A DNA stretch of 64,000 bases from Escherichia coli (GCA_032372955.1 GCA_032372955.1_4725.1); one strand, 5' to 3'; positions 3,465-55,567 are shown, counted from the first letter of the stretch. The notes: generated from the letters alone by a model not told the origin. Program-made: numbers and translations.

Positions 3465-4554
3465 TGGACAGATTCAAGCGTTAAGCTTGTTAAAAACATT
3501 ACCTGTGCCAGAGACAGCAACGCAACGACAAATTCACCAGCTTATTTATCAGCAGGCGGGCGGTATGCTGCCGACCAGTTATACCACAGAAAGTGCTGAT
3601 CTCCTCACGATGGAATCGTACAATCAGCTTGCGATGAAAATTATCAAAGCTATCATCGATGCGATCTGGACAACGTTGCGGAACATTACTGCGTTTATCG
3701 CCAGGTTTATCGATCGTAGTCGCGCACTACAGCTCGAACTCAGCAATATCCGTCGTCACTACACAAAAGCCGTTGGTCGTAAACCCATCGCGCAAAGCTT
3801 CGAAGCTTCGACGACGCTGGCCCCACACTTACGGTATGGGAACAGTTTTGGGTTCGATTTCACAACCGGGAATACGCTATACAAACAGAATTTAGCAATC
3901 GCTGAATATCTCTTGTCTTCGTCGTTCCGTGATGATTTCAAGCAGTTCGCTAATACGTTAGATAGAGCGCTCGACATTATCTTAAAACAGACGGATACCG
4001 CATTAATCGATGTGATTAACCGTGATGCGTACACGTTATTGCATAAAGTCTACAGTACGCTGAACGAATCGAGACTTGTCAATGTAACGTTACTGGGCAA
4101 CCGTACGCTACGACTCGATCAGGTTACCGCCTCAGGTTCCGGATCAATTCAACAGTCCCTCGCCATTCAATCTGCACGGTTTGAAGTCCAGGATGTACCG
4201 TCCATTGAACGGGATATGGTGGTTACAACGCCAACATTAGAACAAGTTGGTGTGCTACTCGAGTCTGTAAATACGGGTGTTGATTTGCTGGTTAGTTACC
4301 ATCGTAAAAAGTACGCCAACGAGTTACTCGAAATCGCAGGGAATCTACAAGCAAAACTTAACGACGTTTATCGTCAACAAGGTCAGTTGTCAGTTGCTAC
4401 TGCTTCTGATGATGCTATGGTAGCCCTTTCTCGATACCTTACAGCGTATACCGCGTGGATCAAGGTGCCGCTTGTGGGCTATGCCGAGTTCTTTACGAAT
4501 TCAACAGCGGCTATGCTTGATGTCTCTCGCGAGGCGCTGAAATATTACTTTTAA
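3448..4554 (+). CDS. hypothetical protein, possible third paralogue
   Basis: Start moved to ATG 3448 (GAGGA RBS); the track start at 3415 overlaps the upstream gene by 50 nt. Weak IHQLIYQQAGGM similarity to neighbours. Confidence 0.6.
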   Translation: MLQTYDGQIQALSLLKTLPVPETATQRQIHQLIYQQAGGMLPTSYTTESADLLTMESYNQLAMKIIKAIIDAIWTTLRNITAFIARFIDRSRALQLELSNIRRHYTKAVGRKPIAQSFEASTTLAPHLRYGNSFGFDFTTGNTLYKQNLAIAEYLLSSSFRDDFKQFANTLDRALDIILKQTDTALIDVINRDAYTLLHKVYSTLNESRLVNVTLLGNRTLRLDQVTASGSGSIQQSLAIQSARFEVQDVPSIERDMVVTTPTLEQVGVLLESVNTGVDLLVSYHRKKYANELLEIAGNLQAKLNDVYRQQGQLSVATASDDAMVALSRYLTAYTAWIKVPLVGYAEFFTNSTAAMLDVSREALKYYF

Positions 4555-13297: not shown

Positions 13298-13340
13298 CTT
13301 ATGCTGTCTTATTTCGCATTACTCCAGTTTATTTCGCGAC

Positions 13341-13356
13341 TACATTACCTAGGTGA
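13341..13356 (+). promoter_or_regulatory. conserved promoter-like motif TACATTACCTAGGTGA (copy A)
   Basis: Identical 16-mer recurs at 19821; related copies at 48000 and 60503; all intergenic, upstream of + strand genes. Confidence 0.45.
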
Positions 13357-19778: not shown

Positions 19779-19820
19779 TTTCTATGCCGTTTACGTTGTG
19801 AATAGAAAAAATTTGACGCT

Positions 19821-19836
19821 TACATTACCTAGGTGA
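19821..19836 (+). promoter_or_regulatory. conserved promoter-like motif TACATTACCTAGGTGA (copy B)
   Basis: Exact repeat of copy A, ~150 nt upstream of the 19986 gene. Confidence 0.45.
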
Positions 19837-45682: not shown

Positions 45683-46225
45683 TTAGCCAACAACGCTAAC
45701 GGTCGGTTTCACGAAGCCATCAGCTACGTTATCCGCCAGAACGGTTGCCAGGTCATCTTTCGGTGCAGCTGCGTAGGTCAGTGCAACCTGCAGAGTGCCG
45801 GTATATACCAGGCCATTCTCGATCGCATTCAGAGTTACCTGACCAACAGTACCTGCAGACAGCTGGAAGGTTTCTTCATTGATTTCACCGGTCAGGGAAG
45901 CCAGACCGAATTTGGTGACCAGCTTGCTTACCAGCTCGGAAGCCTTAATGCTGTCGGTACCGTGCGGCAGTTCGAAAGTAACATCGCCAGTTACATCAGC
46001 GAAAACTTCGGACAGAGCCAGACGATCGTAGTAGAACTGCTGAGTACCCTGCAGGTTAGCTGCTTCAGCTGCAGCATCCAGCTGAATAACGGTGTTCTTT
46101 TCATGTTCGGAAGACGTCTGCGGAGTACCGAACTGCAGTTCTTCTTCGGTCAGCGTGCGGGTTGCTTTGGTGTTGATAAGATCAAGCAGAAGGGATTTCG
46201 CTGCTTTGTTAAAGTCTAAGGCCAT
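45683..46225 (-). CDS. abundant small protein, short member of the YYDR/LxYTG paralogue family
   Basis: Start chosen at internal ATG (MALDFNK) with GAGGACA RBS; high-expression codon usage like the capsid gene; motifs FYYDRLAL, TKFGLASLT, LVYTGTLQV. Confidence 0.65.
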   Translation of the reverse strand: MALDFNKAAKSLLLDLINTKATRTLTEEELQFGTPQTSSEHEKNTVIQLDAAAEAANLQGTQQFYYDRLALSEVFADVTGDVTFELPHGTDSIKASELVSKLVTKFGLASLTGEINEETFQLSAGTVGQVTLNAIENGLVYTGTLQVALTYAAAPKDDLATVLADNVADGFVKPTVSVVG

Positions 46226-46366
46226 GATAATGTGTCCTCTGATTTTTGATGGTCGAAAAGGAGATTCGGAGTCGTTCTCCATAATATTTACATTAATATA
46301 AAATATATTAATTTCTGTAAACACTTACATCTTTTGAGAGTGATGTAACAACCATAGAGGTAGAAA

Positions 46367-47260
46367 ATGGCAACTCAAGTTTCGCTTACTTTAAAAACAC
46401 CTTGGCAACTTATCGTTGATGAGATTAACAAACTCAACGCCGACACTGGTGCCAGCTTCCAATACACCGACCTTAAATACGTTCTTAAAGAAAAGAATCC
46501 TTCTGCTCCAGAAGCAACTTTAACGCTTAGCCCTGGTGATGGTACCCCTTACTTCAATAACCGTGATGTTACCTACCATCGTCTGGATCTGGCTAAATGG
46601 TTCCAGAAAATCGCTGTACGTGTTAACGTTACTGCTGACACCACCATCGGTGATGTGGTTGACCTTGTAGCTCAACGCTACGGTATGATCACACCGACCG
46701 GTGAGAAGTTCCTGGATAAAGATAAAGACATCAAAGCCGATACGTTATCTAATCCGGTTACCTTCAACGAGCATGGTATCCAGACGATCACCCTGGAAGC
46801 TAAAGAAGATTCGTTGGCGTGGTACGGCTCTGTTCAAGTTAAAGTTTATAACACCACGCTGGATCTGGCTAACATCATCAAGGTTACCAATCTGGGTAAC
46901 TTAACCTACGTTGATGAAGGCGACGGCACCAAAACGTCAGCACGTCTGTTAACCTATCCGTTAGACTTCAGTACTTACACCGCAGGTTTACAAGCTATTA
47001 CCAGCAACGATACCAAGATCGATGCAGGCTTAGCAGGTAACCTGACTACCCTGATCAAAGAGCAGACTGGTGTAAGTGATGATATCATCAATGAACTGAA
47101 AACCAATCTGCAAACAGCTACCTTTGTCTATAACGGTGCTACCACCGGGTCTACTGACAAAGGTGTTAACGCTACGTACAGCAATGTGCTGGTGCTGTCG
47201 TTAGCTGACGGTACTCACACCTACGGTAAAGCAGTATTCGGTTATAACGTTTCCGAATAA
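46367..47260 (+). CDS. paralogue family protein, member 5
   Basis: 297-aa ORF, AGAGG RBS; motifs VTYHRLDLA, QRYGMITP, LAWYGSVQV; divergent from the 45683 gene. Confidence 0.65.
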   Translation: MATQVSLTLKTPWQLIVDEINKLNADTGASFQYTDLKYVLKEKNPSAPEATLTLSPGDGTPYFNNRDVTYHRLDLAKWFQKIAVRVNVTADTTIGDVVDLVAQRYGMITPTGEKFLDKDKDIKADTLSNPVTFNEHGIQTITLEAKEDSLAWYGSVQVKVYNTTLDLANIIKVTNLGNLTYVDEGDGTKTSARLLTYPLDFSTYTAGLQAITSNDTKIDAGLAGNLTTLIKEQTGVSDDIINELKTNLQTATFVYNGATTGSTDKGVNATYSNVLVLSLADGTHTYGKAVFGYNVSE

Positions 47261-47276
47261 TTTTAATTAATCTCTC

Positions 47277-47308
47277 CCTTCCTCCTTCCCTGTTGGGTTG
47301 GAGGAAGG
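47277..47308 (+). terminator. conserved hairpin element followed by TTTATG
   Basis: CCTTCCTCC-TT-CCC-TGTT-GGG-TT-GGAGGAAGG. Confidence 0.55.
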
Positions 47309-48097
47309 TTTATGTTTGTGATTATTCTTCTCTTTTATAATTTCTAATGATAAGATTAAGTACCTGGAGTAAAAGTTTACAGATGTTGTAAATGTATTTG
47401 GAAAGTAAAATTTCCACGACCTCGGCCCCTTCGGGGGACGGGGGAGGAGCGAAGTCCTTTAGAGACGAGCAACAGGATAACTCTAAGAAAAAGAAAAACT
47501 AAACGAGCGAAGCGAGTTTATGTTTTTATCCTTAGAGTTATCAAGCTATAAGCGTAGCGTTAGCGTATAACGGTTATGTCGTATACGAATGCAATGAGTA
47601 TAGACGAGATACTCTGATGAACAACGTGAAGAAGAGTATCACAAATGTTTTTTGAGTTATCCGGATTTAACTAGCATGTAACGAAGTGTAATGCACAGAT
47701 GACATGTGTTACCGTTAAGGTAGTAAACACATGTTATCCATTGTTTTGAAGATAAGCTTATTAACTTACTTTTAAATCAATTTAAATATACAAACAACTT
47801 AAACATACCAAGATAAAACAATTGAACCTAAGATAAACAAGATAACTTAGACAATACACTTTTAACGAATACAGATAACATCTTACTTAAATCAAAATAC
47901 CTATCCTCGTTTACCTTCCTTGCTTGCAACACCTCTTCTAAATCCATCCCTTCTTAAGAAACAACAAAACCCTTACTGTAACACAAATCCTTTCACGACT
48001 ATATTACCTAAGTGATGCGTACGTACGATGTTCGTATTGCGTCAAATAGAACTCAATACGTTGTTTAATTAACGTGAAAAACAGAGGAACTTTTTAA
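47309..48097. other. 789-bp AT-rich non-coding region with inverted and direct repeats
   Basis: No ORF of 60 aa or more; 12-bp inverted repeat 47476-47487 / 47531-47542; five AGATAA copies 47750-47880; direct repeat CTTACTT(TT)AAATCAA at 47765 and 47882. Confidence 0.6.
48000..48015 (+). promoter_or_regulatory. conserved promoter-like motif TATATTACCTAAGTGA (copy C)
   Basis: Preceded by TTTCACGAC as in copy D; ~80 nt upstream of the 48098 gene cluster. Confidence 0.45.
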
Positions 48098-48880
48098 ATG
48101 AACGATGAAATCATTTTTGATACCATGTTTACTGGAGATGAATACCTGGCGTTACCGAGCGATGTTCAAAACGAATGCGTGAAGGTAGCATGCTACAGCG
48201 GCGGTCAGGCTGGGATGCGTGTACGTTGCGTTGACGGGACGAACGGGAAAGTTGTTTGGCGTGGTGCTCACACGTACCCTTACCTGCTTACCGGCAACAA
48301 GAATTGGTACGCTCATCGCAGCCAGCATCCTGCACGGATGAGCGCGAGCGGATTCGTGGTACGTGGTGCGTTGGATGAACGGGTGGAACGCATCGAGATC
48401 ACCGATCGCGCGTTCATCGATCAGCTTGCACAGGTTGCTTACGATGAGGGACGTGCAACAGGGCGATACGGTTGGTTGAAGGTGAACAGCGATACGCAAT
48501 TACAGGTAGGATTCCATCACGCGCTTCCTGGGTGGGCGAACCATACCGTTGGAACGTATTACACCAAAAAGCTTACCATGGTGAAACCTTACATGGCGGA
48601 TGCGAGCTTGGAGGCAACGGATCAGATGCATCAATTGCTTCGCATGTATTATCCACGGGTGGTGCATCCACTTGGGTTCGCTTGGGTCAGCGAAGTGCGC
48701 TACAACCCACGCAAGAAACGCGTTGAAGCGAAGGTGCTTAACGAACGTTGGTTACCGGTTGTGCAACCAGGGCTTGACGATGAATCCATCATGATGCGGG
48801 TAAGCCGAAGCCGGTTCGTACAATGGGATGCTACCATGCTACAACGCCCACAACACGTTACAGGAGAAACGTTCGCATGA
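48098..48880 (+). CDS. hypothetical protein
   Basis: 260-aa ORF, AGAGGAA RBS; first gene after the AT-rich region and promoter-like motif. Confidence 0.6.
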   Translation: MNDEIIFDTMFTGDEYLALPSDVQNECVKVACYSGGQAGMRVRCVDGTNGKVVWRGAHTYPYLLTGNKNWYAHRSQHPARMSASGFVVRGALDERVERIEITDRAFIDQLAQVAYDEGRATGRYGWLKVNSDTQLQVGFHHALPGWANHTVGTYYTKKLTMVKPYMADASLEATDQMHQLLRMYYPRVVHPLGFAWVSEVRYNPRKKRVEAKVLNERWLPVVQPGLDDESIMMRVSRSRFVQWDATMLQRPQHVTGETFA

Positions 48881-49176
48881 TACGCGCAACAGGATACGAA
48901 AACAAAGGCAAGAACAGCGTGCAGCGTTACGTTGCCGACGAGGAAGGGAAAGCAGAATACCTGGATTGGTTCAACCGTTACAGCGCAAGCAAGGTACGTG
49001 ATCCTAGCATCCTGAGGTTACAGAGCAGTTTCCAATGGCAGGCTTCCGAACAACGCTGGTACATCACGTTGGAAATCGGAACGGTACGGGAAGACCAGCT
49101 TCCTGCATACTTAAAAGAACAACGGGAGCAGATCAACACATTACTCGCACAACACAAAACGGAACCTAAACCTTAA
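48877..49176 (+). CDS. hypothetical protein
   Basis: Start chosen at ATG 48877 (CAGGAGAAA RBS), ATGA overlap with upstream stop. Confidence 0.5.
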   Translation: MIRATGYENKGKNSVQRYVADEEGKAEYLDWFNRYSASKVRDPSILRLQSSFQWQASEQRWYITLEIGTVREDQLPAYLKEQREQINTLLAQHKTEPKP

Positions 49177-49216
49177 TCCAACACCAACAAGCGAAAAGGA
49201 AAGTACAACAGAAATC

Positions 49217-49492
49217 ATGTTGATGAAACCGACAGCAAAGAACAAGGTTTATAAAGCAATCTACGCGTCAGACACAGTCAGCCTGACGAAGATCATCAAA
49301 TACAAACTTGAGAAGGTGCTACGTGTTGAACCGAGCATAGGCTTAGTCCGTTATCGCCTGATTACCGAGAACGGTGAAGGGTATTACGCACCGTCGTCTC
49401 GAAGCGATAACGCCGTTGTGTTAACCCGGGATGTGGTTGAAGCAATCAACAACGGAACGAAGGCGTTCTACGCGCACAGAAAAGCCGTATAA
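49217..49492 (+). CDS. hypothetical protein
   Basis: 91-aa ORF; RBS weak. Confidence 0.45.
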   Translation: MLMKPTAKNKVYKAIYASDTVSLTKIIKYKLEKVLRVEPSIGLVRYRLITENGEGYYAPSSRSDNAVVLTRDVVEAINNGTKAFYAHRKAV

Positions 49493-49569
49493 CGCAATAA
49501 ACGAATCCAAAGAAGGGAAACTATACCTTAACTTAAAACGACGCTTAGAGAGCGTTACAGGAGCTTAGA

Positions 49570-49977
49570 ATGCAACATGATCAAACGAACACCACCGCAA
49601 CGTCAATAGCCCTTGCCGATGCCGTCCAGGCGTGGAACGAGAACCCAGCCTGTCGAGCAAAGATGGAATTGGTGTACGAAGGATCAACCCGTGTCAGGAC
49701 GGCTGATGATGTTCTGGTCGTACGAGGTGAATTCTTCGCCTTAGGTGTCACGGACCGTGGTCCGTTAGATGCGCTTTGGATCGAGTTACAAACCTGCCCG
49801 CAGAGACCACGCTACGTGACCCGTGACCATCGTCCTGAGAACGCGTTGGTCGGAACCGGTTCCGTGGATATTTTCATCTGGCAGGATACCCTCGACAACA
49901 TGAACAAGATGATCGACGTTGAGAACATCGTTGCAAATAAGTTAACCCAACTTAAAGAACGTCTGATGCCGCTATAA
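49570..49977 (+). CDS. hypothetical protein
   Basis: 135-aa ORF, AGGAG RBS. Confidence 0.55.
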   Translation: MQHDQTNTTATSIALADAVQAWNENPACRAKMELVYEGSTRVRTADDVLVVRGEFFALGVTDRGPLDALWIELQTCPQRPRYVTRDHRPENALVGTGSVDIFIWQDTLDNMNKMIDVENIVANKLTQLKERLMPL

Positions 49978-50089
49978 CGCATCAACATCACCCGCCTGTA
50001 CCTCATCGTGTTCGGGCGGGGCAATAAGAAACCAAGGGGACATCGCCGTCCCCGTTACTATCATCAACCACTATCAAGAGGAACCTACC

Positions 50090-50533
50090 ATGGAAATTAA
50101 ATTCTGTAAATCGATCGCGATTGTACCTGAACAACCTGCGGATGATCTCGAAAAGCTCGATCATCCCACACTGCAACATGCGCTGGAACGTTTAGCCTCT
50201 TTTGCGCCGTTAGAGAATCATCTTCACTGCGTTAATCTTGAAGCATCCGACTTCGACGTGAAGCTTGGGTTCGTGTTTTCACAAACGGGGAAGGATGTGT
50301 TAGAAAACATATTCTGGTCTGCTGAGCATAAGGCGAGAAATGTGATGACGAAGTTAGTTTATAACGTTAGCCTTAGTGAAGACGGCACCTATTGGACGTC
50401 AGAGGCTTGCTGGACGATTTCTGCGATTTCACGAATGGACAAAATACACTATTTGCATCGTGTTGCTGATAGCATTGTACACCAACTGGATCGTTTTGAT
50501 ACCACCCGCTTATCGAATGGAACACAGTGTTAA
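50090..50533 (+). CDS. hypothetical protein
   Basis: 147-aa ORF, AGAGGAA RBS. Confidence 0.55.
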   Translation: MEIKFCKSIAIVPEQPADDLEKLDHPTLQHALERLASFAPLENHLHCVNLEASDFDVKLGFVFSQTGKDVLENIFWSAEHKARNVMTKLVYNVSLSEDGTYWTSEACWTISAISRMDKIHYLHRVADSIVHQLDRFDTTRLSNGTQC

Positions 50534-50548
50534 TACGAGGAATCGAAC

Positions 50549-50977
50549 ATGCAAATTAAATGGCCTGAATCAGCAGTAACTGCAGCGCGCGTTGGTCTTT
50601 ATCATTCGCTGGTTGCTCAGCATACCAGCTTACATCGCACCCTATCACTTTTACGCGAAGACGAAAAACTACGTGAACACATTCAGCCGATCTCAGCATC
50701 AATGAATGCGAACACGTTGTCTATGCGTTGCGTTCGATTGACTTTTGTGTGTACCACGTTAGGAAAGACGTTGCTTGAGGCTGCCTATCTTCGTTGTTGC
50801 GAAAGCACGACGTTCACCGACGATATGGTGTTGTCGATCGAGATGTATTGTCAGACAAATGGAATACGTCAACCGCAGATAGTTTGGAAAATATACGGAT
50901 TGACACCAAAAGTAATCAGCACGAAGTTAGATGCGGTTGCTAATAGCCTTAATGAAATTTTGAAAGAAGGAATTTGA
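50549..50977 (+). CDS. hypothetical protein
   Basis: 142-aa ORF, GAGGAA RBS. Confidence 0.55.
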   Translation: MQIKWPESAVTAARVGLYHSLVAQHTSLHRTLSLLREDEKLREHIQPISASMNANTLSMRCVRLTFVCTTLGKTLLEAAYLRCCESTTFTDDMVLSIEMYCQTNGIRQPQIVWKIYGLTPKVISTKLDAVANSLNEILKEGI

Positions 50978-50978
50978 T

Positions 50979-51341
50979 ATGCAACAACGTATCGGTTTAT
51001 CGCTCGCCATTGACCGACTGATCAAAGTCTCATCGTTACGAAGTGAATTTGTTGGCGTCCGTGAAGAAGCGGCGAATAACCGCTGTATTTTAACGTTTAC
51101 GTGTACCAAGAAAGGCGTGACGGTTATCCGTGATGTTTGGGACGCTGTGAACAAACGTGAACCCCGCTGCTCGGTATCTGTCGTTGATTACAAAAACCTG
51201 GATAATACTTACACTATCCGTTTAGAATGGGAGCATCGCCTCAGGACATTCGTTGAAGTTCGGTCGAAGCTGTTAGCTGAATTGTTGAACGAAGCCTGTT
51301 TACGTGACGAGAACGCTACAGAACTCTTCAGAACGCTTTAA
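50979..51341 (+). CDS. hypothetical protein
   Basis: 120-aa ORF, AAGGAA RBS; starts 2 nt after the previous stop. Confidence 0.55.
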   Translation: MQQRIGLSLAIDRLIKVSSLRSEFVGVREEAANNRCILTFTCTKKGVTVIRDVWDAVNKREPRCSVSVVDYKNLDNTYTIRLEWEHRLRTFVEVRSKLLAELLNEACLRDENATELFRTL

Positions 51342-51447
51342 TTCAATCTTAGATAAGGAAACCCCTTAGAAATTAAAACAAACCGTTATACGTCGTTCTG
51401 TGACGTTTAAGCTATACATTGAACTCATGGCAATCGAGGAAAGAAAA

Positions 51448-51837
51448 ATGTTAAATTCAACTTTTACCCACTATCTCCACACCTATGCAAAATTATGCTG
51501 CGTTGACATGGAAGAGCTCGCGAACGATAATACTGTTCGCGATTGTGAGATGCTTCCTAAGCGACAAGGTTTTCTACCCGGTTCGCGGTCAGCGGCGTTC
51601 TTCTTAATCGCTTACTTCATCGTTAGTCATAGTGCGGCGCTGTTGAGCCAAACCAAGAAACAGCGAAAGGATTACGCTACCGCAATCACTCAAGTTTATT
51701 TCGATCGTCTTCACGGACGTGCAGTGAGTATCGATACCGCGTTAACGACCGCGTTTCGTCATCGAGGCGCAACCGCGGTACAGCTACCTGCTTTGGTTAA
51801 GATCGGAAAAGAAATCATCCAGAATGCAACGCGTTAA
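51448..51837 (+). CDS. hypothetical protein
   Basis: Start chosen at ATG 51448 (GAGGAAAG RBS); 129 aa. Confidence 0.5.
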   Translation: MLNSTFTHYLHTYAKLCCVDMEELANDNTVRDCEMLPKRQGFLPGSRSAAFFLIAYFIVSHSAALLSQTKKQRKDYATAITQVYFDRLHGRAVSIDTALTTAFRHRGATAVQLPALVKIGKEIIQNATR

Positions 51838-51852
51838 TAAATAAACCATAAA

Positions 51853-51909
51853 CCTTCCTTCCCCGGCCTTTACGGCTAGGGAAGGAGGTTGTATAGCATT
51901 TCTTTTTTT
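51853..51909. terminator. imperfect member of hairpin family plus T-run between convergent genes
   Basis: CCTTCCTTCCCCGGCC-TTTAC-GGCTAGGGAAGGAGG then TCTTTTTTTATT. Confidence 0.45.
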
Positions 51910-52996
51910 ATTGGAACGGGTCTGTACGACCGCTGCCACGATCTACACCACCGTGATCGTGGGTGTATACGTTTGTTCCGGTTGGTGAACGCCAAGAGCC
52001 TGCGATGTGTATGAAGTTCCCATTCAACGTCATCGTGTTCCCGTCTTCACCTGTGAAGCTTACAGCTCCAGTGAATACCGTATTAGGACATTTGAACGTG
52101 GTCTGTCCTGATACTTGCGCGGTGTAGCGATCACACTTCAAAGAAACATTCTGGCTCGTAACGCTTTCTGTTTTACTGGTACGCTCGAAGTTCTCACATT
52201 CGGTATAAATGTTTTTTGCTTTCATTCGGATATCGTTCTTAGCAATTGCTTTGAGCGTATCCTCGCATTGGAATGTGATGTTCTTTTTTGTCACGTCGAT
52301 GATGCTGTCGTCCTGGTTTTGATAACGCAGCATATGCTCGACAAAATGGAGTAACAGCAGATTTTGATGGACGCTGTCCGCAACCTGTAGGTAACCCTCG
52401 TCCAGATTAAGTTCCATGTAGACTTGGGTAACTTCACCAAGCTGTGCGCTGGTGCCGATAACCGCTTTCTTGAGGAAAGTATCAACCATTAGGTAATAGC
52501 AGTCTTCCGTTGAAATCGATTTACGGTCCTTCTTGGCGCTAGGACGTGCGCTGATGGTGAGGATAACCGATTCCATGGTCATCAGCTCGCTATCCCCTCC
52601 TTTGGGCTGCCAGTATAGCTGTTCTTCATCGGCGGTACGCCAGACCACCACACGCTGACCTTTCCTCAAGTTAGGTGCTGTCATCCGGTTACTGCCGAAG
52701 GGTAACCAGTAACACTGTACGCTGGTTGTTGTTGCCGCTTTCGCCGTATAACTGTTCCCTTGAGCGTCTGTTGCACTGACTTCTTTCACGCTTCCCGCCG
52801 CTTCAACTTTCCCGTCAGCACCTGACATCATCTCATCAAGAAAGACCTCCAGCGCCTGGTTAGGATCTTCTTCCAGACTTTTATTGGAAAAGTCGGCAGC
52901 AACAGTACCCAAGGCAAAGATACGGAAAACGCTTACGTTGTTGTCTGGAGCTAGCTGACTCCCTTTTGTGCGATTGTCTGTTGCCAGATCGCTCAT
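51908..52996 (-). CDS. hypothetical protein with His/Gly-rich C-terminus (possible baseplate spike-like; unverified)
   Basis: 362-aa ORF, AGGAG RBS; C-terminal VYTHDHGGVDRGSGRTDP. Confidence 0.55.
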   Translation of the reverse strand: MSDLATDNRTKGSQLAPDNNVSVFRIFALGTVAADFSNKSLEEDPNQALEVFLDEMMSGADGKVEAAGSVKEVSATDAQGNSYTAKAATTTSVQCYWLPFGSNRMTAPNLRKGQRVVVWRTADEEQLYWQPKGGDSELMTMESVILTISARPSAKKDRKSISTEDCYYLMVDTFLKKAVIGTSAQLGEVTQVYMELNLDEGYLQVADSVHQNLLLLHFVEHMLRYQNQDDSIIDVTKKNITFQCEDTLKAIAKNDIRMKAKNIYTECENFERTSKTESVTSQNVSLKCDRYTAQVSGQTTFKCPNTVFTGAVSFTGEDGNTMTLNGNFIHIAGSWRSPTGTNVYTHDHGGVDRGSGRTDPFQ

Positions 52997-53039
52997 GCTG
53001 TAATCTCCTACTGATTTAAATAACGATATAGAAAATAAC

Positions 53040-53083
53040 GCTGAAGTATGGCTTCAGCTTCGCATTCTGAACCCGTGGTTCAG
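53040..53083. promoter_or_regulatory. two adjacent inverted repeats upstream of the Rad50-like gene
   Basis: GCTGAAG-TATGG-CTTCAGC (53040-53058) and CTGAACC-CGT-GGTTCAG (53067-53083). Confidence 0.35.
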
Positions 53084-53110
53084 AAGGTATCGAAGAAGGA
53101 TTATCATAGC

Positions 53111-55567
53111 ATGCGATGCACCTATCTCCACTTACGTGGATTCAATCGTTTTGATACCGGGATGATTCGGGAGCTGGTCATCCGGCCAGATAATCCCGTA
53201 CAACTCATTTTAGGCAGTAATGGTTCCGGTAAGAGTAGTCTACTGCCTTTGCTGTATCCAACCGTTCCTGAGCGTGCCGATTTTGATAAAGATGGGTATT
53301 ACGAGTACCGCTGCGAACACCGTAATAAGCAATACCGTCTTATCAGTCGTTTAGAAAAAGGGTTTAAGCACGAGTTCTACGTTAACGATAGCGAGAACCT
53401 GAATGGTGGTGGTACACAACCAGCCCAGTGGAAACTAATCGAGGAACATTTTGAACTTAATGACGACACCATTCGTTTGTTGTTAGGTTACGAAACGGCT
53501 TACCAGTTCACCGAAATGGGGCCGATGAAACGTCGCGAACGATTAACGCAGATATGTCCGGTTAACGTCGATTATGCGCTTGAGTTGTTTCAGGTGGTTA
53601 AGCAACAAGTACGTTCACTGAAAGCGGTGAATGAACATACACTGAATAAGTTGGTTGAAACATCACAGCGCATTGAAGCGAAATACACCGGCACCGACCA
53701 CCAGGGATTGGAAGCAGAGTTAAAGCAGCAACGCTCAGCGCTCGAAGCGATGATGGGGTTGCCGTTATTCGATAGTGATGTCGATCAACGACAGCTTCTG
53801 GAATCCGCACAACGTGCCCATCATTTTAATCGCGAGCTTCTTCGTGCGGTTGTTCGTTACCAAGGAGGAACATCGCAACAAGAACAGCAGAATCTGGCTG
53901 GACTAAGAGAACAACTCGCGAATGCGAATGCAAAACTCGAAAGTCAGGTTGACGAGCTGTTGGGTATCGATAACATTCTTGACCAGTTGAAACAGTCTGG
54001 AGAAGGTGATATCGATCAAATTAAAGCCCGCATTGCACGTTTGGACGAACAACTTCAGCAAGATCATCCAGGTGAGCTTTTAACAATGAATCTGGACGCT
54101 GCGGTTTGTTTACAACAGCTCATGCAAGTTCAGGCTCCGTTAACGGAATTGCTGCAAGAATGGATTGATACCGACAACACCTATCACGTCTACGATGCTG
54201 AAGCTTACATCAAGGAGGAAGAGGCGGCAAGAATGCGTTTGCGTAACGCGAAACATGCGTTAGCCGATTTGGAAGCGCATCTCGACCATCTTAACCATCA
54301 ACCCCAGACCAGCTGTCCAAAATGCAATTATCGCTTTCACGTTGGTGAAACGGAAAAGACCAGCAAAGCGAGTATTGAACAGCGTATTCAGAAAGGCCGT
54401 GCTTGGGTTGAAGAACAAGAGAAATCGTTAGCTGAGCTTAGCGAGAAGGTTCAGCGCTATACGCTCTGGATGGAACAGCATCGTCAGTTAACACGTTGGA
54501 CGAAGGATTATTACGCCATTAAACCCATGTGGGACAATCTGCTGGAAGAAGGACGTAAAAACGGTTTAGGATTCCGCAGCATTGGAATCATTAACGACTG
54601 GTTGCTTGCGTTTGAGAAACTTGCGCGTTACACACAAGCCGAGCAAGAACGGAAGCATCTTCAAGGCATGCTCGAACGTGTACAAGCGGTTGATGTTGAA
54701 CCGTTACAGCAACGTCGAGAATTGCTTTATAAGAACAGGACAGAGTTGTTAACAACCGTTGAGCGGTTAACACAAGCCATCACAGCTACGGAAGGCAGAT
54801 TGGAAACCATTACGACGATTATGGAAGATCAGGTGCGTTCTGATAACAGCGATAAAGCGTTAACGCAACTGTGGTTAGAGTATCTGCAACACCTCTACAC
54901 GAAATCGTTACGTGCTGCGATGTCTGATACGGTTCGCCGAATAAGTCATGTCGAACAGCAACTACAGGAAGCTAAAACCGACCAGCAGCTTCTGGCTCAG
55001 TTGGAAACGACACAAAAAGAGGTGGAAGAACAGCTCAGTTACGCACAACTTGTTTTGGATGAGTTGAGTCCATCCAACGGATTGATTGCCGAAACAATTG
55101 CTGGCCCAATCAACGCATTCGTTGAATACATGAACGGTATCATTTCGAGTATTTGGGAATACCAACTTCAGATACTCCCGTGTGCTATCGACGCGCAAGG
55201 ATTGAACTATCGTTTTCCGCTTTTAACTGAGAAGTATCCGACACCGCGAAAAGATATTGTTTATGGGAGTAAGGGACAAAAGGAAATTATCAACATCGCG
55301 TTCATCATCGCGATGATGCATTACAAAGGGTTTACGGATTATCCGTTGATGTTAGATGAATTCGCATCAACATTCGATCCGCAGCACCAATCTAATGCCA
55401 TGGATTTTGTTCGTCGTCTGGTTGATGGTCACCGCGTAAGCCAGGTGTGGTTTATCAGTCACTATGTAATCAACCATGCATCATTCCGTAAAGCCGAGTG
55501 TATGGTTCTTGATAAAACGAACATCATTCTCCCTGAAACATATAACGAACACGTCACGATTATTTAA
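53111..55567 (+). CDS. SMC/Rad50/SbcC-family ATPase
   Basis: Start chosen at MRCTYLHLRGFNRF (typical family N-terminus). Walker A LILGSNGSGKSSLL, long Q/E/L-rich coiled coil, signature-like GSKGQKE, Walker B PLMLDEF, H-loop WFISHY. Confidence 0.7.
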   Translation: MRCTYLHLRGFNRFDTGMIRELVIRPDNPVQLILGSNGSGKSSLLPLLYPTVPERADFDKDGYYEYRCEHRNKQYRLISRLEKGFKHEFYVNDSENLNGGGTQPAQWKLIEEHFELNDDTIRLLLGYETAYQFTEMGPMKRRERLTQICPVNVDYALELFQVVKQQVRSLKAVNEHTLNKLVETSQRIEAKYTGTDHQGLEAELKQQRSALEAMMGLPLFDSDVDQRQLLESAQRAHHFNRELLRAVVRYQGGTSQQEQQNLAGLREQLANANAKLESQVDELLGIDNILDQLKQSGEGDIDQIKARIARLDEQLQQDHPGELLTMNLDAAVCLQQLMQVQAPLTELLQEWIDTDNTYHVYDAEAYIKEEEAARMRLRNAKHALADLEAHLDHLNHQPQTSCPKCNYRFHVGETEKTSKASIEQRIQKGRAWVEEQEKSLAELSEKVQRYTLWMEQHRQLTRWTKDYYAIKPMWDNLLEEGRKNGLGFRSIGIINDWLLAFEKLARYTQAEQERKHLQGMLERVQAVDVEPLQQRRELLYKNRTELLTTVERLTQAITATEGRLETITTIMEDQVRSDNSDKALTQLWLEYLQHLYTKSLRAAMSDTVRRISHVEQQLQEAKTDQQLLAQLETTQKEVEEQLSYAQLVLDELSPSNGLIAETIAGPINAFVEYMNGIISSIWEYQLQILPCAIDAQGLNYRFPLLTEKYPTPRKDIVYGSKGQKEIINIAFIIAMMHYKGFTDYPLMLDEFASTFDPQHQSNAMDFVRRLVDGHRVSQVWFISHYVINHASFRKAECMVLDKTNIILPETYNEHVTII

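What the first reader, a model, noticed from the sequence alone, without database searches (positions are those of the whole stretch)
48098..51837. Run of eight small genes of unknown function immediately after the AT-rich region
Eight closely spaced + strand ORFs of 91-260 aa, none with a recognisable motif, lie between the AT-rich region with promoter-like motif C and a bidirectional hairpin at 51853; small hairpins also occur at about 49991-50053. The pattern resembles an early or host-takeover gene cluster. By eye the first genes look slightly more GC-rich than the neighbourhood, but this was not computed.
Basis: inference. Interest (0 to 1): 0.45.

Follow-up and report, generated by a model that had tools for sequence, protein, structure and literature searches.

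The report
Early accessory gene cassette, Goslar-like jumbo phage
The eight small genes are real, lineage-restricted genes of a Goslar-like nucleus-forming jumbo phage that sit behind the same promoter motif as the phage's known early genes and form the fastest-changing spot of the whole window, but what they do is still unknown and the pattern is ordinary for large phages.

Summary
The window is collinear with Escherichia phage Goslar (95.7% identity). The eight ORFs are orthologues of Goslar gp021-gp014, all annotated "hypothetical". Two starts need correcting: ORF2 is 99 aa, ORF8 is 129 aa. All eight have ribosome-binding sites and dN/dS of 0.12-0.44. Three orthologues gave peptides in a published Goslar virion preparation.

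"Early" is supported indirectly. A 25-nt motif (TTTCACGrCTAyATTACyT...TGA) lies 83 nt upstream of ORF1 and is conserved in seven relatives. In Goslar it precedes chmA, nvRNAP subunit gp175, an RNAP beta-like gene and about ten other operons. A bidirectional terminator closes the unit.

"Host takeover" is untested. No protein matches any Pfam, PHROG, NCBIfam, PADLOC or PDB family. Homologues occur only in Goslar-like phages.

New points:
- ORF5, ORF6 and, less securely, ORF7 are tandem paralogues with a confident beta2-alpha-beta2-alpha sandwich model.
- ORF1 has a hypervariable centre and two extra paralogues in relatives.
- Gene content varies from 8 to 11 genes.
- ORF6 is the most diverged 500 nt of the 64 kb.

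My best reading is an early, non-structural accessory operon of binder-type proteins evolving in an arms race. It is an ordinary kind of feature and of modest interest.

The parts
47991..48015 (+). Early-promoter-like motif TTTCACGACTATATTACCTAAGTGA (core CTATATTACCT)
   Evidence: 3 matches in the window within 3 mismatches against 0 in shuffles. Conserved upstream of the ORF1 orthologue in 7 genomes. The same motif precedes Goslar chmA, nvRNAP gp175, RNAP beta-like gp165 and about 10 other operons.
48013..48076 (+). Conserved structured 5' leader with two hairpins (48013-48044 and 48057-48076), followed by the RBS AGAGGAA at 48083-48089
   Evidence: RNAalifold on 7 genomes gives 24 pairs, 2 of them with compensatory changes. 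The leader is more conserved than the ORF1 coding sequence.
48098..48880 (+). ORF1 (260 aa), orthologue of Goslar gp021. Conserved N-terminus (aa 1-30), a conserved island at aa 71-90 and a conserved C-terminal half, with hypervariable blocks at aa 31-70 and 91-140.
   Evidence: 23 homologues, all from Goslar-like contigs. A profile search of 1.84 billion representatives finds only its own family and the 277-285 aa paralogues. Column entropy profile. dN/dS 0.44. Paralogues A2/A3 are present in relatives. The AF2 model is poor, pLDDT 56.6.
48877..49176 (+). ORF2 (99 aa), orthologue of gp020. Overlaps the ORF1 stop (ATGA). Very hydrophilic and well conserved.
   Evidence: 84-96% aa identity among relatives, dN/dS 0.14. 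GRAVY -1.0. Only Goslar is found by tblastn against phages.
49217..49492 (+). ORF3 (91 aa, pI 9.8), orthologue of gp019
   Evidence: 100% identical to Goslar, 67-85% to other relatives, dN/dS 0.25.
49570..49977 (+). ORF4 (135 aa), orthologue of gp018. Relatives with the long cassette carry a 156-aa version that is 35-40% identical.
   Evidence: Goslar gp018 gave 2 peptides in the virion preparation.
49991..50053 (+). Two G+C-rich hairpins without a U-tract between ORF4 and ORF5. They mark the boundary between the GC-richer half (ORF1-4) and the GC-poorer half (ORF5-8).
   Evidence: Sequence and fold. Kept in relatives with different loops and stems. Composition split.
50090..50533 (+). ORF5 (147 aa), orthologue of gp017. 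Member 1 of a tandem paralogue family.
   Evidence: 100% identical to Goslar gp017, which gave 4 peptides at 35% coverage. hhalign against the ORF6 family: 93% probability, E 3.6e-7. AF2 model pLDDT 83.6, pTM 0.79, beta2-alpha-beta2-alpha sandwich. Fold matches.
50549..50977 (+). ORF6 (142 aa), counterpart of gp016. Paralogue of ORF5 and the most diverged segment of the window.
   Evidence: 55% aa identity to Goslar gp016 but 97% to a Salmonella-associated contig. dS against Goslar is 1.42. It is the only 500-nt window below 80% identity to Goslar in 64 kb.
50979..51341 (+). ORF7 (120 aa), orthologue of gp015. Probable third, N-terminally shorter member of the ORF5/6 family.
   Evidence: Aligns with ORF5/6 over the core, with six invariant columns (M, L, L, F, G, W) and a seventh L invariant in A3. 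hhalign support is weak: E 7.5e-4, 25% probability. 72-97% identical among relatives.
51448..51837 (+). ORF8 (129 aa, pI 9.5), orthologue of gp014. Has one hydrophobic 19-residue segment (aa 49-67).
   Evidence: 85-99% identical among relatives, dN/dS 0.12. Kyte-Doolittle mean 1.85 over AAFFLIAYFIVSHSAALLS.
51848..51894 (.). Bidirectional terminator hairpin shared with the convergent tail-spike gene (51908-52996, - strand)
   Evidence: 21-nt arms with T-runs on both strands. Annotated as a terminator in Goslar.

Best explanation
The region is one self-contained transcription unit. It consists of an early-type promoter at 47991-48015, a structured leader, eight genes and a bidirectional terminator at 51848-51894. 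It sits between late structural genes of a Goslar-like nucleus-forming jumbo phage.

I infer that the virion RNA polymerase transcribes it from the injected genome in the first minutes of infection, together with chmA and the non-virion RNA polymerase genes. I infer that its products are small, soluble, non-structural proteins. ORF8 may be membrane-associated. I infer that they act by stoichiometric binding to host, or rival-phage, targets rather than as enzymes.

The cassette is accessory and fast-evolving. It contains two paralogue families. One is ORF1 plus two extra copies in relatives. The other is ORF5, ORF6 and probably ORF7. Gene number varies from 8 to 11, and whole alleles are exchanged by recombination. 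This pattern is expected for host-interaction or counter-defence genes in an arms race.

Shown: the genes are real, the motif is shared with chmA and polymerase genes, the families are lineage-restricted, the paralogy is real, and the region is mosaic and variable. Inferred: early timing, cytoplasmic action, binder mechanism, arms-race function.
For: Real genes: every ORF has an RBS. dN/dS is 0.12-0.44 across 6-7 genomes. Peptides were found for Goslar gp016, gp017 and gp018.

Promoter: the 25-nt motif exceeds chance and is conserved in 7 genomes while its flanks diverge. The 11-nt core finds 15 sites in Goslar, all on the gene strand. Fourteen lie 40-220 nt upstream of a same-strand gene and share the extended motif. 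Thirteen of those are intergenic, and one overlaps the short annotated ORF gp047. Downstream genes include chmA, nvRNAP gp175 and RNAP beta-like gp165. The chmA transcription start was mapped from 5-mpi RNA-seq, and 175 of 249 Goslar genes are expressed at 5 mpi. The literature equates such motifs with virion-polymerase early promoters.

Non-structural: five of the eight orthologues were not detected in virions. The other three carry no assigned substructure and are at contaminant level.

Accessory and fast-evolving: homologues occur only in Goslar-like contigs. Relatives have 8, 10 or 11 genes here. ORF1, 4, 5 and 6 are 35-57% identical to their more distant relatives, against 67-100% among relatives for ORF2, 3, 7 and 8. 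Synonymous divergence from Goslar ranges from 0 (ORF3, ORF5) to 1.42 (ORF6). ORF6 is the single most diverged 500 nt of the 64 kb.

Binder-type fold: the confident ORF5 model is a beta2-alpha-beta2-alpha sandwich. Its PDB neighbours are small interaction or dimerisation modules such as Rpb11/L/alpha-NTD, Pcc1 and an immunity protein. No enzyme active site is apparent.
Against: I could not reach per-gene expression data for Goslar gp014-gp021. Early timing rests on a motif by analogy, and 70% of Goslar genes are 'early' anyway, so the class is not very informative.

The same motif also precedes gp214, a high-copy virion protein. The motif therefore does not exclude virion association.

gp017 is estimated at about 18 copies per virion, similar to bona fide virion polymerase subunits at 7-21 copies.

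Confidence: 0.55

Rival explanations
1. The cassette encodes low-copy virion, injected or assembly proteins that belong to the neighbouring host-recognition module. That module comprises the DUF7941 filament proteins gp022/gp023, tail fibre gp025 and tail spike gp013. On this reading the hypervariability reflects receptor or host-range adaptation, not intracellular takeover.
For: The cassette is flanked on both sides by structural genes. gp017, gp018 and gp016 were detected in purified virions, with gp017 at a level like virion polymerase subunits. A variable centre between conserved ends (ORF1) and allele swapping are also typical of host-range determinants. The early-type motif also precedes the virion protein gp214.
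Against: In Table S4 the rows for gp016, gp017 and gp018 carry no assigned substructure. Five of the eight were not detected at all, including ORF1/gp021, while the neighbours gp022 and gp023 reach 580-2140 copies. Non-structural enzymes contaminate the same preparation at equal or higher levels. The unit has its own promoter of the chmA/nvRNAP type and its own terminator. There is no similarity to fibre, chaperone or baseplate families apart from one PHROG hit at E 0.0014 for ORF7.
Confidence: 0.15
2. The proteins serve the phage's own gene-expression machinery. The ORF5/6/7 sandwich proteins would act as small dimerising adaptors of the alpha-less phage RNA polymerases, or of mRNA handling at the vesicle or nucleus. 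They would not target the host.
Confidence: 0.1
3. The ORFs are non-functional filler: decaying or spurious reading frames in a variable region.
For: No known domain in any library. Gene content varies between relatives.
Against: All eight frames are intact in 6-7 genomes with dN/dS of 0.12-0.44 at dS up to 1.5. All have an RBS. Three have peptide evidence. The ORF5 family gives a confident compact fold.
Confidence: 0.02

Closest known systems
Escherichia phage vB_EcoM_Goslar gp014-gp021 (NC_048170, 11236-14971)
   Same: Direct orthologues in the same order and orientation, between the same neighbours (DUF7941 gp022/gp023 and tail spike gp013), with the same terminator. Three are 97-100% identical.
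   Different: ORF6 is a different allele, 55% aa identical and 97% identical to a Salmonella-associated contig. ORF1 is 86% identical. All are annotated only as hypothetical proteins, so the comparison gives no function.
PhiKZ-type early operons transcribed by the injected virion RNA polymerase
   Same: A conserved AT-rich motif around -10 heads operons of mostly small orphan genes. The same motif class heads the chimallin gene. Both are lineage-specific small proteins with host-directed roles expected.
   Different: The Goslar-type motif has its own extended sequence (TTTCACGr...TGA). Only about 14 sites were found, against 28-32 in PhiKZ. Timing is not measured here. There is no sequence homology to any PhiKZ early protein.
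DCoH-like / RBP11-like two-layer alpha/beta sandwiches (Rpb11, archaeal subunit L, alpha N-terminal domain, Pcc1) and TYW3-like proteins
   Different: Sequence identity is 1-12% and there is no profile match. Many de novo designed sandwiches score the same. Dimerisation and partner binding are untested. This is a resemblance of fold, not membership.
Early host-takeover and anti-defence gene clusters of large virulent phages (T4 early region, T7 class I genes, anti-defence islands)
   Same: Small orphan genes behind an early promoter, with paralogue expansion, presence/absence variation and mosaic recombination (my own knowledge of these systems).
   Different: No member matches any known takeover or anti-defence family. 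No phenotype is known. The phage shields its DNA in a vesicle and a protein nucleus, so any targets may differ.

Membership tests
Jumbo-phage early (virion RNA polymerase) transcription unit | A conserved AT-rich motif of about 10 nt, centred near -10, shared by the starts of early operons | tested here: met
   CTAyATTACyT with extended flanks lies 83 nt upstream of ORF1. It is shared with about 13 other operon starts in Goslar, including chmA and RNA polymerase genes. All sites are on the coding strand and all but one are intergenic. Definition from PMC7598289.
Jumbo-phage early (virion RNA polymerase) transcription unit | Transcripts present within minutes of infection, before or without nucleus formation, with a TSS just downstream of the motif | not testable with these tools
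   Goslar RNA-seq exists (5-60 mpi, ChmA knock-down), but the per-gene table is not held.
Jumbo-phage early (virion RNA polymerase) transcription unit | A discrete unit bounded by a terminator | tested here: met
   Hairpin 51848-51894 with T-runs on both strands, annotated as a terminator in Goslar. Internal hairpins at 49991-50053 lack a U-tract.
Virion structural or injected proteins of Goslar | Detected in purified virions above the level of non-structural contaminants | tested here: inconclusive
   gp017 about 18 copies, gp018 about 4, gp016 about 0.6. gp014, 015, 019, 020 and 021 were not detected. Thymidylate synthase about 20, ChmC about 78 and ChmA about 126 in the same table.
Virion structural or injected proteins of Goslar | Assigned to a substructure of the cryo-EM model | tested here: not met
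   The substructure column is empty in the Table S4 rows for gp016, gp017 and gp018. The other five orthologues are not in the table. The neighbour gp013 is the modelled tail spike.
RBP11-like / DCoH-like fold (ORF5-7 family) | beta2-alpha-beta2-alpha two-layer sandwich | tested here: met
RBP11-like / DCoH-like fold (ORF5-7 family) | Sequence or profile relationship to RNA polymerase alpha/Rpb3/Rpb11 families | tested here: not met
RBP11-like / DCoH-like fold (ORF5-7 family) | Homo- or heterodimerisation and binding to polymerase large subunits | not testable with these tools
   No multimer prediction or interaction data available.
Known phage protein families, anti-phage defence proteins, curated bacterial families | Significant profile match | tested here: not met
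   PHROGs: only ORF7 at E 0.0014 to a baseplate wedge family and ORF8 at E 0.052. Pfam none below E 0.027. PADLOC none. NCBIfam none. No dedicated anti-defence library was available.

The most novel reading that the evidence does not exclude
The cassette is a counter-defence (or inter-phage competition) island made of new protein families. On this reading the hypervariable centre of ORF1 and the allele-swapping ORF5/6/7 sandwich proteins are binders that track variable host immune proteins met in the minutes before the phage nucleus is built. The ORF5-type fold, seen by structure search in other chimalliviruses and jumbo phages, would then mark a widespread, so far unnamed family of jumbo-phage early effectors.
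Probability: 0.2. Interest if true: 0.6.

Novelty: new member of a known kind. Interest (0 to 1): 0.3.

Why it matters
Nucleus-forming phages are naked to cytoplasmic defences only in the first minutes. The small early proteins made then are the least understood part of their biology.

This cassette gives a compact, well-delimited set of candidates: a defined promoter, eight genes, two paralogue families and natural allele variants between E. coli- and Salmonella-associated relatives. They could be tested with the knock-down tools already working in Goslar.

The promoter motif, catalogued here for about 14 Goslar operons, is a practical handle for predicting the early regulon of Goslar-like phages. 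In itself, a run of orphan early genes in a jumbo phage is expected rather than surprising.

Tried and rejected
- Domain searches of all eight proteins gave nothing usable (Pfam, PHROGs, NCBIfam, PADLOC). Member-by-member Pfam scans of the two family alignments also gave nothing.
- PDB sequence searches, with two profiles and four single proteins, gave nothing below E 0.19.
- A profile search with the ORF1 family against 1.84 billion representatives found only the family itself and its 277-285 aa paralogues.
- tblastn of ORF2, 3, 4 and 8 against 50,697 phage records found only Goslar. A genome-contig scan with ORF7 found no relative.
- I considered an ADP-ribosyltransferase-like reading of the invariant His/Tyr/Glu residues of ORF1. 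I dropped it because no profile or fold evidence supports it.
- The afdb50 fold library was unavailable.
- I looked for per-gene Goslar expression or knock-down data. The supplements are not held or the genes are not mentioned.
- Sigma-70 promoter and intrinsic terminator scans of 46000-53500 did not exceed shuffles.
- The exact 8-mer TATATTAC alone is not enriched (2 found, 1.8 expected). Only the extended motif is.
- Horizontal acquisition from a host was rejected. The only 'bacterial' hits are 240-250 kb phage contigs inside genome assemblies.
Full report
**Identity of the window.** The region 47200-52000 matches Escherichia phage vB_EcoM_Goslar at 92.3%. The whole window is collinear with the reverse complement of Goslar positions 1-63064 at 95.7% identity. 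Goslar is a nucleus-forming jumbo phage (Chimalliviridae). The eight ORFs correspond one-to-one to Goslar gp021, gp020, gp019, gp018, gp017, gp016, gp015 and gp014, all annotated as hypothetical proteins. Upstream lie gp023 and gp022. These are DUF7941 proteins present at about 2140 and 580 copies per virion (bioRxiv 10.64898/2026.04.21.720040). Downstream, convergent, lies gp013, the modelled tail spike, then an SbcC-like gene.

**Check of the observation.** The eight + strand ORFs exist. Each ATG is preceded by an AGGAG/GAGGAA-type site.

Two starts need revision:
- ORF2 begins at 48877 (99 aa, ATGA overlap with the ORF1 stop), as in Goslar. The 117-aa form is not kept in relatives.
- ORF8 begins at ATG 51448 (129 aa) behind GAGGAA. 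The GTG at 51400 has no RBS.

The upstream intergenic region is 34.6% GC, against 47.1% for the window. The hairpin at 51848-51894 has T-runs on both strands and is an annotated terminator in Goslar.

The two hairpins at 49991-50021 and 50036-50053 are present and kept in relatives with altered loops and stems. They lack a U-tract, and the region's folding z-score is only -1.67.

The GC impression is right. Among 56 window genes, ORF1 and ORF4 are at the 98th and 96th percentile of GC. ORF1-4 are at the 86th-96th percentile of GC3. ORF5 and ORF6 are at the 7th-23rd percentile. The cassette is therefore two compositional halves split at the hairpins.

**Are they genes?** Orthologues were recovered from six further Goslar-like genomes:
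- Goslar itself.
- A 243-kb contig in a Shigella sonnei assembly.
- A 240-kb contig in a Salmonella assembly.
- A 248-kb ENA scaffold.
- Two IMG/VR contigs.

All frames are intact. Median pairwise dN/dS is 0.12-0.44 at dS up to about 1.5. Goslar gp017 is 100% identical to ORF5 and gave 4 peptides at 35% coverage. gp018 and gp016 gave 2 peptides each, all in a purified-virion LC-MS/MS data set. The ORFs are real protein-coding genes.

**What the proteins are.** None matches Pfam, PHROGs, NCBIfam or PADLOC at a meaningful level, nor any PDB sequence. Homologues exist only in Goslar-like phage contigs:
- 23 clusters for ORF1.
- 21 clusters for an ORF5/6/7 profile.
- Only Goslar among 50,697 phage records for ORF2, 3, 4 and 8.
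- A profile of the ORF1 family, read against 1.84 billion representative proteins, found only itself and a set of 277-285 aa paralogues.

Two paralogue families emerge.

The first is ORF1. Relatives with a longer cassette carry two extra genes of 280-300 aa between ORF2 and ORF3. These are related to ORF1 (hhalign 96-98% probability). Within the ORF1 family the N-terminus (aa 1-30), a short island (aa 71-90, AHxSQHP) and the C-terminal half are conserved. Residues 31-70 and 91-140 are hypervariable. This matches the stretch (about 48186-48647) that fails to align at the DNA level in three relatives.

The second is ORF5 and ORF6, which are full-length paralogues (hhalign 93%, E 3.6e-7). ORF7 aligns with them over the core. 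Six columns are invariant in both alignments (M, L, L, F, G, W), and a seventh L is invariant in A3. Profile support for ORF7 is weak (E 7.5e-4).

An AlphaFold2 model of ORF5, built on a 21-sequence alignment, is confident (pLDDT 83.6, pTM 0.79). It shows an N-terminal helix followed by a beta2-alpha-beta2-alpha two-layer sandwich.

- Pcc1, an immunity protein and many de novo designed sandwiches.

This is a generic small interaction or dimerisation fold with no enzyme signature.

Foldseek against viral models puts uncharacterised 140-165 aa proteins first. They come from PhiPA3, 201phi2-1, the Erwinia phages Simmy50, Kwan and Stratton, and RaK2 (E 1e-5 to 1e-3, TM 0.4-0.5). The fold may therefore recur in jumbo phages.

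**Transcription signals.** The 25-nt sequence TTTCACGACTATATTACCTAAGTGA at 47991-48015 recurs at 60494 (exact to the degenerate pattern) and at 13332 (3 mismatches). A related site lies at 19820. No match occurred in 100 shuffles.

The motif is conserved upstream of the ORF1 orthologue in all seven genomes. The AT-rich DNA just upstream of it is full of indels.

In the complete Goslar genome the core [CT]TA[CT]AT[TA]AC[CT]T finds 15 sites, all on the main coding strand. Fourteen share the extended flanks and lie 40-220 nt upstream of a same-strand gene. Thirteen of these are intergenic, and the fourteenth overlaps the short annotated ORF gp047. The fifteenth (229755) lies inside gp195 and lacks the extended flanks. 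The downstream genes are:
- chmA (gp246), nvRNAP gp175 and RNAP beta-like gp165.
- HD-domain gp159.
- gp004, gp040, gp046, gp075, gp105, gp182, gp200, gp214, gp225 and gp021.

For jumbo phages with their own polymerases, a conserved AT-rich motif near -10 upstream of early operons is the virion-polymerase early promoter (PMC7598289). In PhiKZ the chimallin gene carries that early motif (PMC8244752). In Goslar the chmA start site was mapped from 5-mpi RNA-seq, and 175 of 249 genes are expressed at 5 mpi.

I therefore infer that the cassette is an early operon. This is inference. The per-gene table was not available, and the same motif also precedes gp214, an abundant virion protein.

Between the promoter and the ATG lies an 82-nt leader. 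It has two conserved hairpins, and two of their base pairs covary.

**Variability.** Relatives carry 8 genes (window, Goslar, one IMG/VR contig) or 10-11 genes. The longer forms add two ORF1 paralogues and a 145-aa gene, carry a 156-aa version of ORF4, and one lacks ORF5.

Divergence is mosaic. ORF2, 3, 7 and 8 are 67-100% identical among relatives. ORF1, 4, 5 and 6 fall to 35-57% in the more distant relatives.

Against Goslar, dS is 0 for ORF3 and ORF5, 0.02 for ORF4, and 0.14-0.28 for ORF1, 2, 7 and 8. It is 1.42 for ORF6. ORF6 is 97% identical to the allele of the Salmonella-associated contig.

In the whole 64 kb, the only 500-nt window below 80% identity to Goslar is 50501-51000, that is ORF6. 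ORF1 alleles also reassort independently of cassette length.

**Virion question.** gp017, gp018 and gp016 are in the virion MS table at about 18, 4 and 0.6 estimated copies. The other five are absent. The table rows for the three detected proteins carry no assigned substructure.

The same table lists several proteins that are not structural:
- ChmA about 126 copies and PhuZ about 170.
- ChmC about 78.
- A 3'-5' exoribonuclease about 59.
- Thymidylate synthase about 20.

True virion polymerase subunits are at 7-21 copies. The detection proves translation and does not prove packaging. A low-copy packaged role for gp017 cannot be excluded.

**Interpretation.** My best reading (confidence 0.55) is an early, self-contained accessory operon of small non-structural proteins that act by binding. 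It evolves by duplication, loss and allele exchange, as expected for host-interaction or counter-defence genes. It acts in the interval when the injected genome sits in its vesicle and the nucleus is not yet built.

Rivals:
- Low-copy virion or assembly proteins tied to the neighbouring host-recognition module (0.15).
- Adaptors of the phage's own transcription or RNA machinery, suggested by the Rpb11-like fold (0.10). The alpha-independent PhiKZ polymerase structure and the family's variability weaken this.
- Non-functional ORFs (0.02), contradicted.

**Novelty and score.** The genes are already in GenBank as Goslar hypothetical proteins. A run of orphan early genes is a normal feature of jumbo phages.

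New here are:
- The delimitation of the unit.
- The promoter catalogue.
- The two paralogue families and the confident fold of one.
- The finding that the cassette holds the window's divergence hot spot.

Interest 0.3. It is a new member of a known kind.

Noticed in passing
window 47370-47655 (+), inside the 'AT-rich' intergenic region: A block of about 290 nt is essentially 100% identical in six Goslar-like genomes whose flanking genes are only 42-93% identical (alignment A5). It folds into a chain of hairpins (MFE -80.8 kcal/mol against -56.4 +/- 4.5 for shuffles, z -5.4). It ends in the hairpin GATACTCT...AGAGTATC followed by a T-run. It has no Rfam match even at E<=1 and no tRNA. I found it only in three Goslar-like IMG/VR contigs. 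It is a candidate phage non-coding RNA.
   Followed up: partly
window 47369-47383, and Goslar 173096-173082 (- strand): The 15-mer GTAAAAGTTTACAGA heads the conserved non-coding block. Its only other copy in Goslar lies about 120 nt upstream of the early-type promoter of chmA. About 20 nt downstream both copies have a similar TAT(A/T)TG..GAAAG stretch. It may be a second promoter class. PhiKZ chmA has both an early and a middle promoter.
   Followed up: partly
window 47660-47990: The truly AT-rich, indel-rich part of the intergenic region carries 5 of the window's 21 + strand AGATAA words within 125 nt, and relatives have more copies. A DnaA-box-like TTATCCATT lies at about 47733. The cumulative GC skew of the window is flat or falling up to about 48 kb and rises steadily afterwards. 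A replication-origin or protein-binding array is possible. I did not test this.
   Followed up: no
window 60494-60518, 13332-13356 and 19820-19836 (+): Further copies of the early-promoter-like motif, upstream of the orthologues of Goslar gp004, gp046/gp047 and gp040. In Goslar the copy at 49733 lies inside the annotated 62-aa ORF gp047, which may therefore be a mis-call.
   Followed up: partly
L003 7930-7990 and L008 about 4040-4100 (upstream of their ORF1 orthologues): Two relatives carry a 43-nt insertion that duplicates the TTACCT part of the promoter and adds a perfect hairpin (TTCATGATGC...GCATCATGAA) right at the expected start site. A similar promoter-plus-hairpin arrangement precedes Goslar gp200.
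   Followed up: no
Goslar virion MS table (bioRxiv 10.64898/2026.04.21.720040, Table S4): The purified-virion preparation contains many plainly non-structural proteins at tens to more than 100 estimated copies (ChmA, PhuZ, ChmC, thymidylate synthase, exoribonuclease, helicase). Low-copy 'virion' assignments from this table need independent confirmation.
   Followed up: yes
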